From an uncultured Alphaproteobacteria bacterium (GTDB lineage Bacteria > Pseudomonadota > Alphaproteobacteria > Rs-D84 > CACZYB01): DNA of 60,330 nucleotides. Numbering within the stretch: the stretch's first letter is position 1; every line of letters begins with the position of its first letter. Positions 33,647 through 37,030 of this stretch are shown one piece after another. Position numbers and translations under genes: made by a program. The stretch lies in assembly GCA_963544995.1 (NCBI GenBank), contig CAUUHH010000002.1:1-60330 (forward strand), in the 5' to 3' direction. The notes beneath the pieces are model-generated. The model saw only the letters and a program-made list of their open reading frames with translations, made no database searches and had not been told where the DNA came from.

Positions 33647-34198
33647 ATGCGTTGTCCTTTTTGTTTATCAGATGATACCCAAGTAAAAGATTCAAGAGTA
33701 GCAGAAGATGGTTCTTATATAAAAAGGAGAAGATTTTGTAGCGAATGCGGAAGCAGGTTTACAACATTCGAAAGAGTTCAATTAAAAGAAATAATGGTAA
33801 AAAAATCAAGTGGAGAACTAGTTCCTTTTTCTAGGGATAAATTATTAAATTCTATAAAACTAGCATGTAAAAAAAGACCTATTACAGATGATAGAATAGA
33901 TAAAATAGTATCCTCTATACAAAGACAACTTGAAACAACAGTTGATGGAGAAGTTACATCAAAAGAAATAGGTGTTCTTACCATGGATGTCCTAGCTAAT
34001 TTAGATTTAGTGGCATATATAAGATTTGCATCAGTTTATTATAATTTTGAAAAAAAAGAGGATTTTTCAAAATTTATAGATGCAATTAAAAAAGAAGTTA
34101 TGAATAAAGAAGACGAATTACTATCAAACGATACATATAAAGAATGCAAACTAGACTCACAATTTTTAACTATAACAAATCAAAACTCAAACAGATAG
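33647..34198 (+). CDS. nrdR: Transcriptional repressor NrdR (with C-terminal extension)
   Basis: Zn ribbon 'MRCPFC...CSECGSRFTTFE' plus ATP-cone. At 183 aa it is longer than my recollection of ~150-160 aa for typical NrdR. Confidence 0.9.
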   Translation: MRCPFCLSDDTQVKDSRVAEDGSYIKRRRFCSECGSRFTTFERVQLKEIMVKKSSGELVPFSRDKLLNSIKLACKKRPITDDRIDKIVSSIQRQLETTVDGEVTSKEIGVLTMDVLANLDLVAYIRFASVYYNFEKKEDFSKFIDAIKKEVMNKEDELLSNDTYKECKLDSQFLTITNQNSNR

Positions 34199-34210
34199 TA
34201 TTTATAAATA

Positions 34211-35299
34211 TTATTTATTGCTTTTTCGTCTATTGTCATCTTTACATAACATTTGACAATTTTCTATAGTAGTATGTCCACCTTCACACCAAGGAGTTAT
34301 ATGATCTGCCTCCATTTCCTCTATTTCGAAATGTTTTTTACAAACCGGACATATTCCATTTTGCCTTTCATAAACTGATCTTTTTTCACTATCTTTAAAG
34401 GCCCTTATATTTAAACACCTATCATTACCACTTAACACATATTCATAAATACCTTTTTTTGAAGTTATTTCATCATATTCATCTTTCATCAATTTTGAAA
34501 TTTCTGTTTCTAATTCTTCTGGGTTATAATCATTGCTTTTATATTTATTATATAATTCCCCCCACTGTAAACCTTTCATCTCTTTCCTGTATTTTGGAAA
34601 TAAATTTTCAATCCAACTTATTACAGATTGAAAATAATTCCATAATTCTATCGCACTATGATTATGTTGATGGGTTGCCATATATTCTTCTATATTATTA
34701 TCACTTATCCACTTTATTGCTGTTTCTAAATAATCTTGCCTTATTGGACTGCCATTCAGATAATTGCTTGCAATCTTGTATGCTAAGCAATTATTTTTAC
34801 TAAAATAATGTTTTGCATCTGATAACCATTCACCTGTATAAATTGCATTTCTTAATTCTTGATCTGTTAATTTTTCACCCGCAATATTGATAACTTTAAA
34901 CCACTCCAACTTTTCCTTATCATTTCCTTCACAAATATAAATCATAAGTTCATAGTCTAAAATTTTATTTTTTTCAGTATCTGTTAAATTGTGAAAATAT
35001 AAATTATTAATAGAATAGGAACCTTTAACATATTCACAAATACTAATAGTCCTTTGTTGCCCGTCCAAAACCTCAAAACTACCATCTTCATTTTTGCACC
35101 AATACATTACATTTAATGGAAAATTTTTATTTACAGTATCAATAACCGCATTTCGTTTCTTTTCATCATAAACAAATTCTCGTTGATATTTTGGCCTTAT
35201 ATTTAATCTATTATTATATCCAATAACTCCTTCTTCATCATTGTTTTTATAATTTTCAACTACATCTTTGATTTTTATATGCTTTAATTCTATTTTCAT
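34211..35299 (-). CDS. DUF262 (ParB/Srx-like NTPase, DGQQR motif) - HNH endonuclease fusion
   Basis: 362 aa. N-terminal 'RPKYQREFVY' and 'VLDGQQRT'. C-terminal HNH 'CPVCKKHF..ADHITPWCEGGHTTIENCQMLCKDDNRRK'. Its ATG directly abuts the stop of the upstream MTase. Confidence 0.75.
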   Translation of the reverse strand: MKIELKHIKIKDVVENYKNNDEEGVIGYNNRLNIRPKYQREFVYDEKKRNAVIDTVNKNFPLNVMYWCKNEDGSFEVLDGQQRTISICEYVKGSYSINNLYFHNLTDTEKNKILDYELMIYICEGNDKEKLEWFKVINIAGEKLTDQELRNAIYTGEWLSDAKHYFSKNNCLAYKIASNYLNGSPIRQDYLETAIKWISDNNIEEYMATHQHNHSAIELWNYFQSVISWIENLFPKYRKEMKGLQWGELYNKYKSNDYNPEELETEISKLMKDEYDEITSKKGIYEYVLSGNDRCLNIRAFKDSEKRSVYERQNGICPVCKKHFEIEEMEADHITPWCEGGHTTIENCQMLCKDDNRRKSNK

Positions 35300-36229
35300 T
35301 TAAATTATTCCTTTCTTTTTTATTAGAATTCTTCTATACAATAATTTTCCATTTATAATATTTATATCATCTGCAAAATTTTGACCATTGTGATAACGAC
35401 TATCACCTAAAATTTCAAATTGATCTGGATTGTATTCATCCAGAAAAGTTATTGGAACACCCATAACACCATCATAATCAACTGGAACATCACTTACTTT
35501 ATCGACATTTATTGCATCATAATTATCATATTTTTGATATTCATTTAGATTATATTTTTTGTATAAATCCAATCTTTCCTGCCTTTTTGAAATTTCTAAA
35601 TTGGTAAACCATCTTGTTAAACCTCCTAATTTCCCTAAACTGCCATCTGGTTGTATAAAATTTTTTGGCGTACTGTATCCAAGCCATATTTTATTTTCTT
35701 TAATAAGTTTAAATATTTCTTTATAGGTAATAGCATTTTTATTCCCAATAATAATAAATTTTTTATTGTATTCTACCAGTTGTGCTACATATTCACGAAA
35801 CAATGAAAATGGAGGATTCGTGCAAACTATATCTGCCTGTTTTAAAAGTTCTATGCATTCATCACTTCTGAAATCTCCATCGCCTTTTAATGGTTTTATA
35901 TCTATTTCATTGGTATCTGGTACTCTGTTTTTATTTGTGTCCCCTGTGTATTCAAGATATATCGCCACTTCATTCTCATTTTTTGAAAATAAATTTACAT
36001 CTTTATTTTTATAACAAGTTGTTATTAATTTTTTAAGACCTAAATATTCAAAATTATATGAAAAATAATGGAAAAAATTACTTACCCTTGGATCATCACA
36101 ATTACATAAAACAACCTTATCTTTAAAGAAATCTTTATAATGTTTTAATTCGTTTTCTATATCACTTAGTTCAGTATAAAATTCATCATTTTTATTTTTC
36201 TTTGCTGCTTTTAAATTTGTATTTCCCAT
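35300..36229 (-). CDS. N6-adenine DNA methyltransferase, EcoRI-methylase-like family
   Basis: 309 aa. 'NDEFYT' near the N-terminus, catalytic 'IVCTNPPFSLF' (NPPF), and 'GVPITFLDEYNPDQFEILG' near the C-terminus. Confidence 0.75.
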   Translation of the reverse strand: MGNTNLKAAKKNKNDEFYTELSDIENELKHYKDFFKDKVVLCNCDDPRVSNFFHYFSYNFEYLGLKKLITTCYKNKDVNLFSKNENEVAIYLEYTGDTNKNRVPDTNEIDIKPLKGDGDFRSDECIELLKQADIVCTNPPFSLFREYVAQLVEYNKKFIIIGNKNAITYKEIFKLIKENKIWLGYSTPKNFIQPDGSLGKLGGLTRWFTNLEISKRQERLDLYKKYNLNEYQKYDNYDAINVDKVSDVPVDYDGVMGVPITFLDEYNPDQFEILGDSRYHNGQNFADDINIINGKLLYRRILIKKKGII

Positions 36230-36317
36230 AACTTATCTTTCAATATAGATGTAGGTTTATGGAGATATAAAAAACAATAAATTGAAAAATAATAATTATT
36301 GATAAATGTTTAAAAAT

Positions 36318-36352
36318 AACTATAGTTAACAATATTGAATCTAAACGTACGT
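36318..36352. promoter_or_regulatory. Cluster of four short perfect palindromes in the divergent MTase/recombinase control region
   Basis: AACTATAGTT (36318-27), GTTAAC (36325-30), CAATATTG (36330-37), ACGTACGT (36345-52). Confidence 0.4.
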
Positions 36353-36436
36353 CTATAATTAAAAAACTTGTTTTTTATTAAATTTCTGTGATTTAAGTAT
36401 CTTCTTATTCAATAAATTGTAAAAGGAGATTATAGA

Positions 36437-37030
36437 ATGACAATTATAGCATACATAAGGGTTTCAAATGATAAACAAACATGCTTAAATCAACATTATG
36501 AAATAGAAAATTATTGTAATAGTAATAACATAATAATTGATAAATGGATTGAAGAAATTATATCATCCAGAAAAGATTTAAAAGAAAGAAAACTTAATAA
36601 ACTTTTAAATTCTATAAAGGTTAATGATATTGTTATTACATCAGAAATATCAAGGCTTGGTCGTAATTTATTAGAAGTAATGAAAATTTTAGAAATATGT
36701 TTAAATAAAGGATGTAAAATCATTACAATAAAAGAAAATTATATTTTATCCCCAGATATACAAAGCAAAGTTTTGGCTTTTGCCTTTGGACTTGCGGCCG
36801 AGATAGAAAGACAATTAATATCACAAAGAACAAAAGAAAGCTTAAAAAGATTAAAAGCAGAAGGAAAACACCTGGGACGTCCATTTGGGTTTAAATATTG
36901 TAAATTGGATAAACAAAGACACATAATTCAAAATTTATTACAAAATAATACAAGTAAATATAAAATTTCAAAATTAATGAATTGTAGTTGGAATACACTA
37001 CACAGATTTTTAAAAAATAATCAAATGTAA
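36437..37030 (+). CDS. Small serine recombinase (resolvase/invertase type)
   Basis: 197 aa. N-terminal catalytic 'AYIRVSNDKQ', 'SEISRLGRN', 'ERQLISQRTKESL', and a C-terminal HTH. RBS AAAGGAG. Confidence 0.8.
   Translation: MTIIAYIRVSNDKQTCLNQHYEIENYCNSNNIIIDKWIEEIISSRKDLKERKLNKLLNSIKVNDIVITSEISRLGRNLLEVMKILEICLNKGCKIITIKENYILSPDIQSKVLAFAFGLAAEIERQLISQRTKESLKRLKAEGKHLGRPFGFKYCKLDKQRHIIQNLLQNNTSKYKISKLMNCSWNTLHRFLKNNQM

What the first reader, a model, noticed from the sequence alone, without database searches (positions are those of the whole stretch)
34211..36229. EcoRI-like N6A methyltransferase translationally abutted to a DUF262(ParB/Srx-like)-HNH nuclease: candidate non-canonical restriction/defence pair
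Seen: on the minus strand the 309-aa ORF ends with TAA (35302-35300). The very next codon, ATG (35299-35297), opens the 362-aa ORF. With zero spacing this implies one transcript and probably coupled translation.

ORF1 has the amino-MTase catalytic tetrapeptide NPPF ('IVCTNPPFSLF'), 'NDEFYT' near the N-terminus and 'GVPITFLDEYNPDQFEILG'. I recognise this combination as the EcoRI-methylase-like adenine MTase family. ORF2 has an N-terminal DUF262 module ('RPKYQREFVY', 'VLDGQQRT') and a C-terminal canonical HNH finger ('CPVC...ADHITPW..GGHT..NCQMLC..DN').

Established: DUF262 modules are the NTP-binding halves of GmrSD/BrxU Type IV enzymes and of SspE. In those proteins they are fused to DUF1524 nucleases and target modified DNA, and they are not normally operon-coupled to an amino-MTase.

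Inference: here a classical HNH replaces DUF1524 and the nuclease is placed behind a methyltransferase. That architecture is expected for a methylation-protected, NTP-dependent restriction enzyme (or an addiction module) rather than a modification-dependent one. This combination does not fit the standard Type I-IV descriptions. It is also the only defence-like locus in an otherwise purely housekeeping window of a reduced genome.
Basis: partly seen in the sequence, partly recalled or inferred. Interest (0 to 1): 0.75.

Follow-up and report, generated by a model that had tools for sequence, protein, structure and literature searches.

The report
Common mobile restriction-modification gene pair
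The two abutting genes are an intact copy of a very widespread, horizontally mobile restriction-modification pair, made of an EcoRI-family adenine methyltransferase followed by a DUF262-HNH nuclease, so the locus is real but ordinary, although nobody seems to have tested this nuclease family at the bench.

Summary
On the minus strand a 309-aa EcoRI-family N6-adenine methyltransferase (36229..35300) ends in TAA, and the next base starts the ATG of a 362-aa DUF262(GmrSD_N)+Zn-HNH nuclease (35299..34211).

The pairing is the rule for this nuclease family, not an oddity:
- At least 561 species-representative genomes encode relatives.
- In 86 of 88 fetched loci (many bacterial phyla, two archaea, plasmids, a phage) an EcoRI-family methyltransferase lies upstream on the same strand. 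The other two loci are cut too short to tell.
- 51 of the 86 junctions overlap or abut.

PADLOC-DB models both proteins full length as Type II MTase and Type II REase, so the pair fits existing classes. The methyltransferase is 51% identical over its full length to genuine M.EcoRI, which suggests a GAATTC-like target, but I could not show this.

The nuclease has an invariant DGQQR motif and an invariant Cys4-HNH. There is no DUF1524, no solved full-length relative, no NCBIfam model and no paper that I could find. Its biochemistry, including any NTP gating, is therefore untested.

The genes are under strong purifying selection and match the host's base composition. Verdict: a new member of a catalogued kind. 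The family is of modest interest; this copy is not.

The parts
35300..36229 (-). Methyltransferase gene (309 aa plus TAA stop): EcoRI-family N6-adenine DNA methyltransferase
   Evidence: ORF. PF13651 full length, E 9e-124. PADLOC MTase_II, E 1e-113. 51% identical over residues 3-308 to genuine M.EcoRI, which sits next to 'type-2 restriction enzyme EcoRI' on an E. coli plasmid.
35807..35818 (-). Codons for NPPF (residues 138-141), the catalytic motif IV of the methyltransferase
   Evidence: Read from the sequence. T137-N-P-P-F-S142 is invariant in an alignment with M.EcoRI and eight partner methyltransferases.
35297..35302 (-). TAA stop of the methyltransferase directly followed by the ATG of the nuclease (zero spacing)
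   Evidence: Sequence. Overlap or abutment in 51 of 86 homologous loci.
35309..35312 (-). AGGA Shine-Dalgarno-like site, 9 nt upstream of the nuclease ATG, inside the methyltransferase coding region
   Evidence: Sequence. Purine-rich GGA/GGAG stretches occupy the same place in many homologous loci (printed junctions).
34211..35299 (-). Nuclease gene (362 aa plus stop): DUF262(ParB/Srx-like) - helical middle region - Zn-HNH
   Evidence: ORF. Pfam. PADLOC REase_II full length, E 1e-147. AlphaFold2 model, mean pLDDT 85.4.
34838..35203 (-). DUF262 / GmrSD_N domain (residues 33-154)
   Evidence: PF03235, E 1e-19. Foldseek matches ParB CTPase-fold structures and BrxU 7p9k.
35051..35065 (-). Codons for DGQQR (residues 79-83), the nucleotide-pocket motif of DUF262 proteins
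   Evidence: Sequence. Invariant in 41 sequences from both nuclease subfamilies. The role of the motif is taken from the GmrSD/BrxU literature (PMC11322646).
34214..34351 (-). HNH nuclease domain (residues 317-362) with a Cys4 zinc site (C317, C320, C348, C352) and D332-H333...N347...N356
   Evidence: PF01844, E 1e-12. These residues are invariant. Matches the Gme HNH nickase 4h9d and McrA 6ghc by sequence and by fold.
36230..36436 (.). AT-rich (about 20% GC) intergenic region upstream of the methyltransferase, shared with the divergent recombinase gene; presumed promoter region
   Evidence: Composition and sequence. Promoter-like hits are no more frequent than in shuffles, so the promoter is not located.
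36437..37030 (+). Neighbouring serine recombinase (resolvase/invertase type). It is context and possibly a mobility partner, not a conserved part of the module.
   Evidence: PF00239, E 5e-31. NF009949 Mpi-type invertase 257 bits against a cut-off of 272. A homologue is adjacent in only 1 of the 88 other loci.

Best explanation
This is a two-gene, methylation-protected restriction-modification operon of Type II organisation, and it belongs to a very widespread, horizontally mobile family. The upstream gene encodes an M.EcoRI-family N6-adenine methyltransferase that marks the host's copies of a short target, probably GAATTC-like or with an AATT core. The downstream gene is translationally coupled, so it is not made without the methyltransferase. 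It encodes the restriction nuclease, in which a Cys4-zinc HNH (beta-beta-alpha-Me) domain cuts DNA lacking the mark. Its N-terminal DUF262 (ParB/Srx-fold) domain keeps an invariant DGQQR pocket. That domain, together with the helical middle region, most likely supplies target binding and a nucleotide-dependent switch for the HNH domain, by analogy with BrxU, GmrSD and SspE. Shown here: the domains, the operon structure, the conserved pairing, the mobility and the purifying selection. Inferred: protection by methylation, the identity of the target and NTP gating.
For: Domains. Model and fold matches. Pairing: an EcoRI-family methyltransferase lies upstream on the same strand in 78 of 80 genome loci and 8 of 8 plasmid or phage loci. 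The two exceptions are a contig with only 245 bp upstream (L076) and one where a RhuM gene lies upstream of the nuclease and the contig ends soon after, an arrangement also seen as an insert in L052. Junctions overlap or abut in 51 of 86 loci. One representative carries both halves in a single 688-aa ORF. The pairing holds even in a second nuclease subfamily that is only 40-44% identical, found on E. faecium plasmids and in Flavobacterium phage laban6-1. PADLOC models label the two proteins MTase_II and REase_II, the nuclease end to end. Mobility: the flanks are unrelated between loci. The module sits between gyrA and lpxK in the closest relative L009, and in an integrase/recombinase/KwaB island in L046. 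It occurs on conjugative and small plasmids. Nucleases 58-68% identical occur across many bacterial phyla and in two archaeal MAGs. Integrity: the window copy keeps every invariant residue. dN/dS against L009 is about 0.05 for the nuclease and 0.10 for the methyltransferase. Target lead: the methyltransferase is 51% identical over its full length to genuine M.EcoRI. M.EcoRI falls within the spread of the partner methyltransferases: 45-59% identical to them, against 46-72% between the window methyltransferase and the other partners.
Against: No member of the nuclease family could be tied to an experiment. NCBIfam has no family model for it, PGAP calls it only 'DUF262 domain-containing protein', and no open-access paper on it was found. 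I could not establish where the PADLOC REase_II model came from, so it may rest on REBASE predictions rather than on a characterised enzyme. Site avoidance did not single out any target: GAATTC observed/expected is 0.70, rank 13 of 64 palindromic hexamers. By sequence the DUF262 domain is only distantly related to BrxU (E 0.05 with a family profile), so carrying NTP gating over from BrxU is weak. The window methyltransferase has a shorter segment after 'NKIWLG' than M.EcoRI, which could change its specificity.
Confidence: 0.8

Rival explanations
1. The same biochemistry, but the pair persists mainly as a selfish addiction (post-segregational killing) element in a small, otherwise housekeeping genome region, with little or no anti-phage benefit.
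For: Frequent on small non-mobilisable plasmids and next to toxin-antitoxin genes. Inserted as a bare two-gene unit between housekeeping genes here and in L009. Extreme horizontal spread. Type II R-M systems are known to behave this way (Kobayashi 2001, cited in PMC4619093).
Against: Not exclusive of defence. The pair also sits in defence islands (KwaB neighbour in L046) and has other genes embedded in it (RhuM, DUF2130, T5orf172). It is also carried by a phage.
Confidence: 0.08
2. The nuclease is a GmrSD/BrxU-like Type IV enzyme that attacks modified foreign DNA, and the methyltransferase is a functionally separate neighbour.
For: The DUF262 domain with DGQQR is shared with GmrSD, BrxU and SspE. 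NCBI names one subfamily 'GmrSD restriction endonuclease domain-containing protein'.
Against: No DUF1524. Strict methyltransferase-then-nuclease synteny with overlapping stop and start codons across phyla, which stand-alone Type IV enzymes are not expected to show (my own knowledge; the neighbourhood survey of GmrSD in PMC4619093 lists Type I R-M elements among its neighbours). A nuclease that depended on the partner's own m6A mark would kill its host.
Confidence: 0.04
3. The HNH protein is a homing or mobility endonuclease that spreads the cassette, and the methyltransferase is cargo or an orphan regulator.
For: HNH domains are common in homing endonucleases. The module moves as a minimal two-gene unit, usually with no recombinase of its own.
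Against: No conserved ends or target sites flank the module. Insertion contexts are unrelated. The nuclease is more conserved than the methyltransferase and is always downstream of it, as expected for a methyltransferase-REase pair.
Confidence: 0.03
4. The locus is an inactive relic in a reduced genome.
For: AT-rich small-genome context. GC and GC3 are equal to the host's, so the acquisition is not recent or came from a similar donor.
Against: Both ORFs are full length, with all family-invariant residues. dN/dS is 0.05-0.10.
Confidence: 0.03

Closest known systems
EcoRI restriction-modification system (M.EcoRI with R.EcoRI)
   Same: The methyltransferase is a clear homologue of M.EcoRI: 51% identity over the full length, with the same DEFYT / CNCDDP / TNPPFS / GVMGVPITF motifs and the same short C-terminal tail. 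Both are two-gene systems carried on mobile DNA.
   Different: The nuclease is unrelated: R.EcoRI is annotated as an EcoRI-family type II endonuclease, while here it is DUF262+HNH. Gene order is REase then methyltransferase in EcoRI and methyltransferase then REase here. The target sequence of the window system is unknown.
GmrSD / BrxU Type IV restriction enzymes (DUF262 + DUF1524)
   Same: N-terminal DUF262 ParB/Srx-like domain with DGQQR. Overall layout of DUF262, helical linker and His-Me-finger nuclease. BrxU 7p9k is among the best fold matches.
   Different: The C-terminal nuclease is a canonical Cys4 HNH (PF01844), not DUF1524 with EHxxP. It is always coupled to a methyltransferase. The protein is much smaller (362 aa against 580 for the BrxU chain). 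Sequence similarity to BrxU is marginal (E 0.05). It is expected to be blocked by modification rather than to depend on it.
HNH-type Type II restriction endonucleases (KpnI, Hpy99I, PacI, NlaIII, SphI and others; PMC2441816)
   Same: A beta-beta-alpha-Me HNH catalytic domain in an REase partnered with a separate methyltransferase. PADLOC files the protein under REase_II.
   Different: None of the 14 HNH REase subfamilies listed in PMC2441816 could be matched to this one with the tools available. I am not aware of an N-terminal DUF262 domain in the characterised ones (my own knowledge, not tested).
SspE (phosphorothioate-sensing DUF262-DUF1524 effector)
   Same: A DUF262 NTPase domain coupled to a nuclease, working alongside a host DNA-modification module (PMC12707154).
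   Different: SspE senses the host's phosphorothioate mark and carries DUF1524. Here the modification is m6A and the nuclease domain is HNH.
Menshen NsnA (DUF262 component of the NsnABC antiphage system)
   Same: The N-terminal half (residues 6-206) matches the PADLOC NsnA model, E 1e-26.
   Different: No NsnB or NsnC partners. The C-terminal HNH and the methyltransferase partner are specific to this family. I saw only the title of the Menshen paper and did not read it.

Membership tests
Type II restriction-modification system (Roberts et al. 2003 nomenclature; PADLOC RM type II) | Separate methyltransferase and endonuclease genes, adjacent to each other | tested here: met
   Abutting ORFs. 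MTase_II and REase_II model hits. Pairing conserved in 86 of 88 loci.
Type II restriction-modification system (Roberts et al. 2003 nomenclature; PADLOC RM type II) | Cleavage at a fixed position in or near a defined recognition sequence, blocked by the cognate methylation | not testable with these tools
   Needs biochemistry or a methylome. Site-avoidance statistics were inconclusive.
Type II restriction-modification system (Roberts et al. 2003 nomenclature; PADLOC RM type II) | Mg2+ only, with no NTP requirement | not testable with these tools
   The invariant DGQQR pocket raises the possibility that this feature is not met.
EcoRI_methylase family (Pfam PF13651) N6-adenine methyltransferases | Full-length match above the gathering score, with the NPPF catalytic motif | tested here: met
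   413.6 bits against a cut-off of 26.4. NPPF invariant. 51% identity to M.EcoRI.
EcoRI_methylase family (Pfam PF13651) N6-adenine methyltransferases | GAATTC specificity (M.EcoRI itself) | tested here: inconclusive
   The similarity suggests a related site. GAATTC observed/expected is 0.70 (95% CI 0.57-0.83) in host flanks, but this ranks 13th of 64.
GmrSD / BrxU Type IV family | N-terminal DUF262 with the (I/V)DGQQR motif | tested here: met
   PF03235, E 1e-19. LDGQQR is invariant.
GmrSD / BrxU Type IV family | C-terminal DUF1524 with EHxxP | tested here: not met
   No PF07510 hit. PF01844 HNH is present instead.
GmrSD / BrxU Type IV family | Modification-dependent cleavage, with no cognate methyltransferase | tested here: not met
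   A methyltransferase is always coupled upstream. Substrate preference itself was not testable.
HNH (His-Me finger) nucleases | Beta-beta-alpha-Me motif with the catalytic His and the Asn/Asn residues, and a Cys4 zinc site | tested here: met
   PF01844, E 1e-12. D332, H333, N347, N356, C317, C320, C348 and C352 are invariant. Fold match to 4h9d and 6ghc.
Characterised REBASE enzyme family (named prototype) | Close homologue with an experimentally determined recognition site | not testable with these tools
   REBASE is not available here. There is no NCBIfam 'XxxI family type II restriction endonuclease' hit, and no source gives the protein an informative name.

The most novel reading that the evidence does not exclude
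The DUF262-HNH proteins coupled to EcoRI-family methyltransferases are a large, uncharacterised class of restriction enzymes. They are blocked by modification but gated by a nucleotide through a ParB/Srx-fold NTP pocket, making them the methylation-sensitive mirror image of GmrSD/BrxU. They may cut the same GAATTC-like sites as EcoRI with a completely different nuclease, having swapped REase partners within one methyltransferase lineage.
Probability: 0.3. Interest if true: 0.55.

Novelty: new member of a known kind. Interest (0 to 1): 0.3.

Why it matters
This particular locus matters little: it is one more copy of a catalogued R-M module, and it shows that even a small AT-rich genome keeps an intact one. 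The family matters more. It is among the most widely transferred R-M pairs seen here, reaching candidate phyla radiation (Patescibacteria) bacteria, archaea, plasmids and a phage. Genome annotation still calls it 'DUF262 domain-containing protein', and no biochemical study turned up. Showing what the DUF262 domain does in a methylation-blocked enzyme would link the Type II and Type IV (GmrSD/BrxU/SspE) mechanisms. The close kinship of its methyltransferase to M.EcoRI also offers a clean case of REase replacement within one methyltransferase lineage.

Tried and rejected
1. Naming the prototype enzyme. CviAII was considered because I recalled (not checked) that it too has a methyltransferase-then-REase arrangement with overlapping stop and start codons. 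It was dropped because Orlowski & Bujnicki list it as of unknown fold. The HNH subfamily list in the same paper includes a putative 'Mae7806ORF5066P' group that might be this family, but I could not check it.

2. Provenance of the PADLOC REase_II model. The two PADLOC papers do not say how it was built.

3. Inferring the target from palindrome avoidance in 502 kb of host flanks and in the window. Only the usual biases appeared (GGCC, CTAG, GATC, CTGCAG). GAATTC is unremarkable.

4. Looking for the recognition site as a conserved palindrome upstream of the methyltransferase genes. Only AT-rich hexamers turned up.

5. Island boundaries. No tRNA lies nearby. No ends are shared with other loci. 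GC is only slightly lower than in the neighbours and GC3 matches the host.

6. A 19/23 inverted repeat brackets the operon and is rarely reached in shuffles (2 of 300). It has no counterpart in L046, so I did not build on it.

7. PDB by sequence. There is no structure for the methyltransferase family, and only the HNH domain and a marginal BrxU hit for the nuclease.

8. Literature searches on DUF262 with HNH, Type II, EcoRI or DGQQR found only work on Type IV, SspE, BREX and Menshen. The cap on papers was reached before PMC7230728 and PMC6219065 could be read.
Full report
**Observation.** On the reverse strand the methyltransferase ends in TAA (35302-35300) and the next three bases are the nuclease ATG (35299-35297). 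An AGGA lies 9 nt upstream of that ATG, inside the methyltransferase coding sequence. Every quoted peptide motif is present.

Pfam gives PF13651 EcoRI_methylase over the whole of ORF1 (E 9e-124). For ORF2 it gives PF03235 GmrSD_N/DUF262 (residues 33-154, E 1e-19) plus PF01844 HNH (residues 317-362, E 1e-12), with no DUF1524.

**What the databases already say.** PADLOC-DB matches ORF1 to an MTase_II model (E 1e-113). It matches ORF2 end to end (1-362 against 1-372/372, E 1e-147) to a model labelled 'Type II restriction enzyme'. Weaker hits cover only the DUF262 half: NsnA of the Menshen system and PD-T4-2_A.

NCBIfam has no model for the nuclease. It returns only sub-threshold HNH-region hits to Cas9d and IscB. 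Public sources call the protein 'DUF262 domain-containing protein', 'HNH endonuclease family protein' or 'GmrSD restriction endonuclease domain-containing protein'. The pair is therefore already catalogued as a Type II R-M by a defence-system database, but general annotation does not name it. I could not establish whether the PADLOC model rests on a characterised enzyme.

**How common the pair is, and whether the pairing is real.** Each protein has more than 8000 homologues in the 90%-clustered collection. The top 120 nuclease hits are 66-83% identical and about 360 aa long. An exhaustive search of 1.84 billion 50%-identity representatives finds 504 clusters at E<=1e-30.

The best 80 are 58-83% identical. 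They span Alphaproteobacteria, Patescibacteria (candidate phyla radiation), Bacteroidota, Bacillota, Chloroflexota, Actinomycetota, Campylobacterota, Verrucomicrobiota and others, plus two archaeal MAGs.

I searched all 88 fetched loci with the window methyltransferase. An EcoRI-family methyltransferase lies upstream on the same strand in 78 of 80 genome loci and in all 8 plasmid or phage loci. Of the two exceptions, L076 has only 245 bp upstream. In L077 a RhuM gene lies upstream of the nuclease and the contig ends shortly after. RhuM also forms part of the insert between the methyltransferase and the nuclease in L052.

The stop/start junction overlaps or abuts in 51 of 86 loci (ATGA in 32) and is at most 24 nt in 75. 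One representative protein (P0377, 688 aa) carries EcoRI_methylase, GmrSD_N and HNH in a single ORF. This could be a true fusion or a one-base assembly error.

A second nuclease subfamily of 387 aa is only 40-44% identical to the window protein. It is found on E. faecium plasmids and in Flavobacterium phage laban6-1, it is just as abundant, and it too follows an EcoRI-family methyltransferase. Here coupling is the rule.

**Mobility and state of the window copy.** None of the window's neighbours (PBP1A, MurA, NrdR, ComM) recurs beside the module elsewhere, apart from an unrelated PBP1A-like gene in L026. The non-coding flanks have no counterparts in other loci.

- In the closest relative (L009, 83% identical) the bare two-gene unit sits between gyrA and lpxK.
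- In L046 it lies in an island with a tyrosine integrase, a serine recombinase and a KwaB-like gene.
- On plasmids it lies near conjugation, resistance or toxin-antitoxin genes.

In the window it is wedged between nrdR and a serine recombinase/comM. No tRNA lies nearby. GC is slightly lower than in the neighbours, but GC3 cannot be told apart from the host's.

Both genes are intact and keep all residues that are invariant across the family. Against L009, dN/dS is about 0.05 for the nuclease and 0.10 for the methyltransferase, with dS close to saturation. The copy looks functional and is not a recent arrival, unless it came from a donor of similar composition.

**Anatomy of the nuclease.** The AlphaFold2 model has mean pLDDT 85.4 and pTM 0.62. 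It shows three parts: an N-terminal alpha/beta domain, a helical middle region (about residues 155-300) and a C-terminal beta-beta-alpha unit.

Foldseek against the PDB returns ParB/Noc CTPase-fold domains and BrxU (7p9k) for the N-terminal part. For the C-terminal part it returns the Gme HNH nickase 4h9d, EcoKMcrA 6ghc and Cas9 HNH domains. No solved structure covers the whole protein.

Sequence searches of the PDB agree, and BrxU is only marginal (E 0.05 with a family profile). Across both subfamilies the following are invariant:
- P36-x-Y-Q-R40;
- L78-D-G-Q-Q-R83;
- the Cys4 set C317, C320, C348, C352;
- D332-H333, N347 and N356.

In GmrSD and BrxU the DGQQR motif forms the nucleotide pocket, and NTP binding or hydrolysis controls the nuclease (PMC11322646; PMC12707154). 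Its invariance here is the basis for the inference that this enzyme is also nucleotide-gated. That is an inference by analogy and has not been tested.

**The methyltransferase and the likely target.** Small E. coli and Klebsiella plasmids carry genuine EcoRI systems, with 'type-2 restriction enzyme EcoRI' followed by the methyltransferase. The window methyltransferase is 51% identical to that M.EcoRI over residues 3-308.

In an alignment and neighbour-joining tree of 77 methyltransferases, M.EcoRI is 45-59% identical to the DUF262-HNH partners. The window methyltransferase is 46-72% identical to the other partners. M.EcoRI branches between the methyltransferases of the two nuclease subfamilies. 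One methyltransferase lineage has therefore been combined with two unrelated nucleases, the EcoRI-type and the DUF262-HNH type, and in opposite gene orders.

This makes a GAATTC-like or AATT-core target a reasonable lead. However, the segment after 'NKIWLG' differs in length from M.EcoRI, and avoidance statistics do not single out GAATTC or any other site. The target remains unknown.

**Mechanism.** The best-supported reading is a methylation-protected R-M operon. The methyltransferase is translated first and the nuclease is translated by coupling or re-initiation. The HNH domain cuts unmethylated target DNA, and the DUF262 and helical regions provide recognition and possibly an NTP switch.

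- A Type IV reading conflicts with the absence of DUF1524 and with the invariant upstream methyltransferase.
- A homing-nuclease reading lacks any conserved insertion site.
- A relic reading conflicts with the intact motifs and the low dN/dS.
- Whether the module serves its host mainly as defence or persists as an addiction element cannot be decided from sequence.

**Comparison and novelty.** In organisation the locus works like an orthodox Type II system. Its methyltransferase is a true member of the M.EcoRI family. Its nuclease shares the DUF262 module with GmrSD, BrxU, SspE and Menshen NsnA but fails the DUF1524 criterion, so it is not a GmrSD-family member.

Fusion of COG1479/DUF262 to HNH nucleases was already noted in comparative genomics (PMC3632139). 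The window locus is therefore a new member of a known, catalogued kind.

What remains open is the biochemistry of the family as a whole. I found no characterised prototype, no structure and no paper. REBASE itself could not be consulted.

**Verdict.** Observation confirmed and interpretation partly supported. Interest is low to moderate (0.3), and it attaches to the uncharacterised family rather than to this copy.

Noticed in passing
window 36437-37030 (+); L046 3268-3873: A serine recombinase (Resolvase domain; Mpi-type DNA invertase model at 257 bits, just under its 272 cut-off) sits divergently next to the methyltransferase. A 50%-identical recombinase also abuts the methyltransferase in a Rickettsiales MAG, but co-directionally, and there it is beside a tyrosine integrase and a KwaB-like gene.
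   Followed up: partly
window 34152-34174 and 36321-36343: A 19-of-23 inverted repeat brackets the R-M operon, and its left arm lies inside the 3' end of nrdR. Only 2 of 300 shuffles of the two flanks reach this match, but nothing similar is found in L046. It could be a recombination site or chance.
   Followed up: partly
window 36345-36352: An ACGTACGT palindrome stands out in the roughly 20% GC intergenic region between the methyltransferase and recombinase genes. It might be an operator or a recombinase site.
   Followed up: no
L052 1444-4525; L061 3085-4999; L077 189-1204: Where the methyltransferase and nuclease lie 0.5-3.6 kb apart, the gap holds other genes: RhuM-family, DUF6978, DUF1828/DUF1829, DUF2130 and T5orf172 proteins. 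These are genes embedded inside the R-M operon.
   Followed up: partly
protein P0377 (688 aa): A single ORF carries EcoRI_methylase, GmrSD_N and HNH. It is either a natural methyltransferase-nuclease fusion or a frameshift artefact at the ATGA overlap.
   Followed up: partly
L027 and L070 (archaeal MAGs): Nucleases 61-66% identical to the window protein, each with its methyltransferase, occur in an uncultured archaeon and a Nitrososphaerota MAG. This suggests transfer across domains, unless the bins are contaminated.
   Followed up: no
window, whole 60 kb outside 34211-36229: GATC is strongly under-represented (76 observed against 159 expected, O/E 0.48, z -6.6), more than any other 4-bp palindrome with a usable expected count (only CGCG is lower, on an expectation of about 7). 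This hints at a past or present GATC-specific restriction pressure unrelated to this locus.
   Followed up: no
L089 1855-3698; L090 2076-3924: Genuine M.EcoRI falls inside the diversity of the methyltransferases partnered with DUF262-HNH nucleases. One methyltransferase lineage has therefore been paired with two unrelated nucleases, in opposite gene orders.
   Followed up: yes
L004 4986-6149; L005 3977-5140: A second, equally abundant nuclease subfamily (387 aa, 40-44% identical, with extra inserts near the N-terminus and before the HNH domain) occurs on optrA/erm(A) E. faecium plasmids and in Flavobacterium phage laban6-1. It is also coupled to a methyltransferase, so it may represent a second specificity.
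   Followed up: partly
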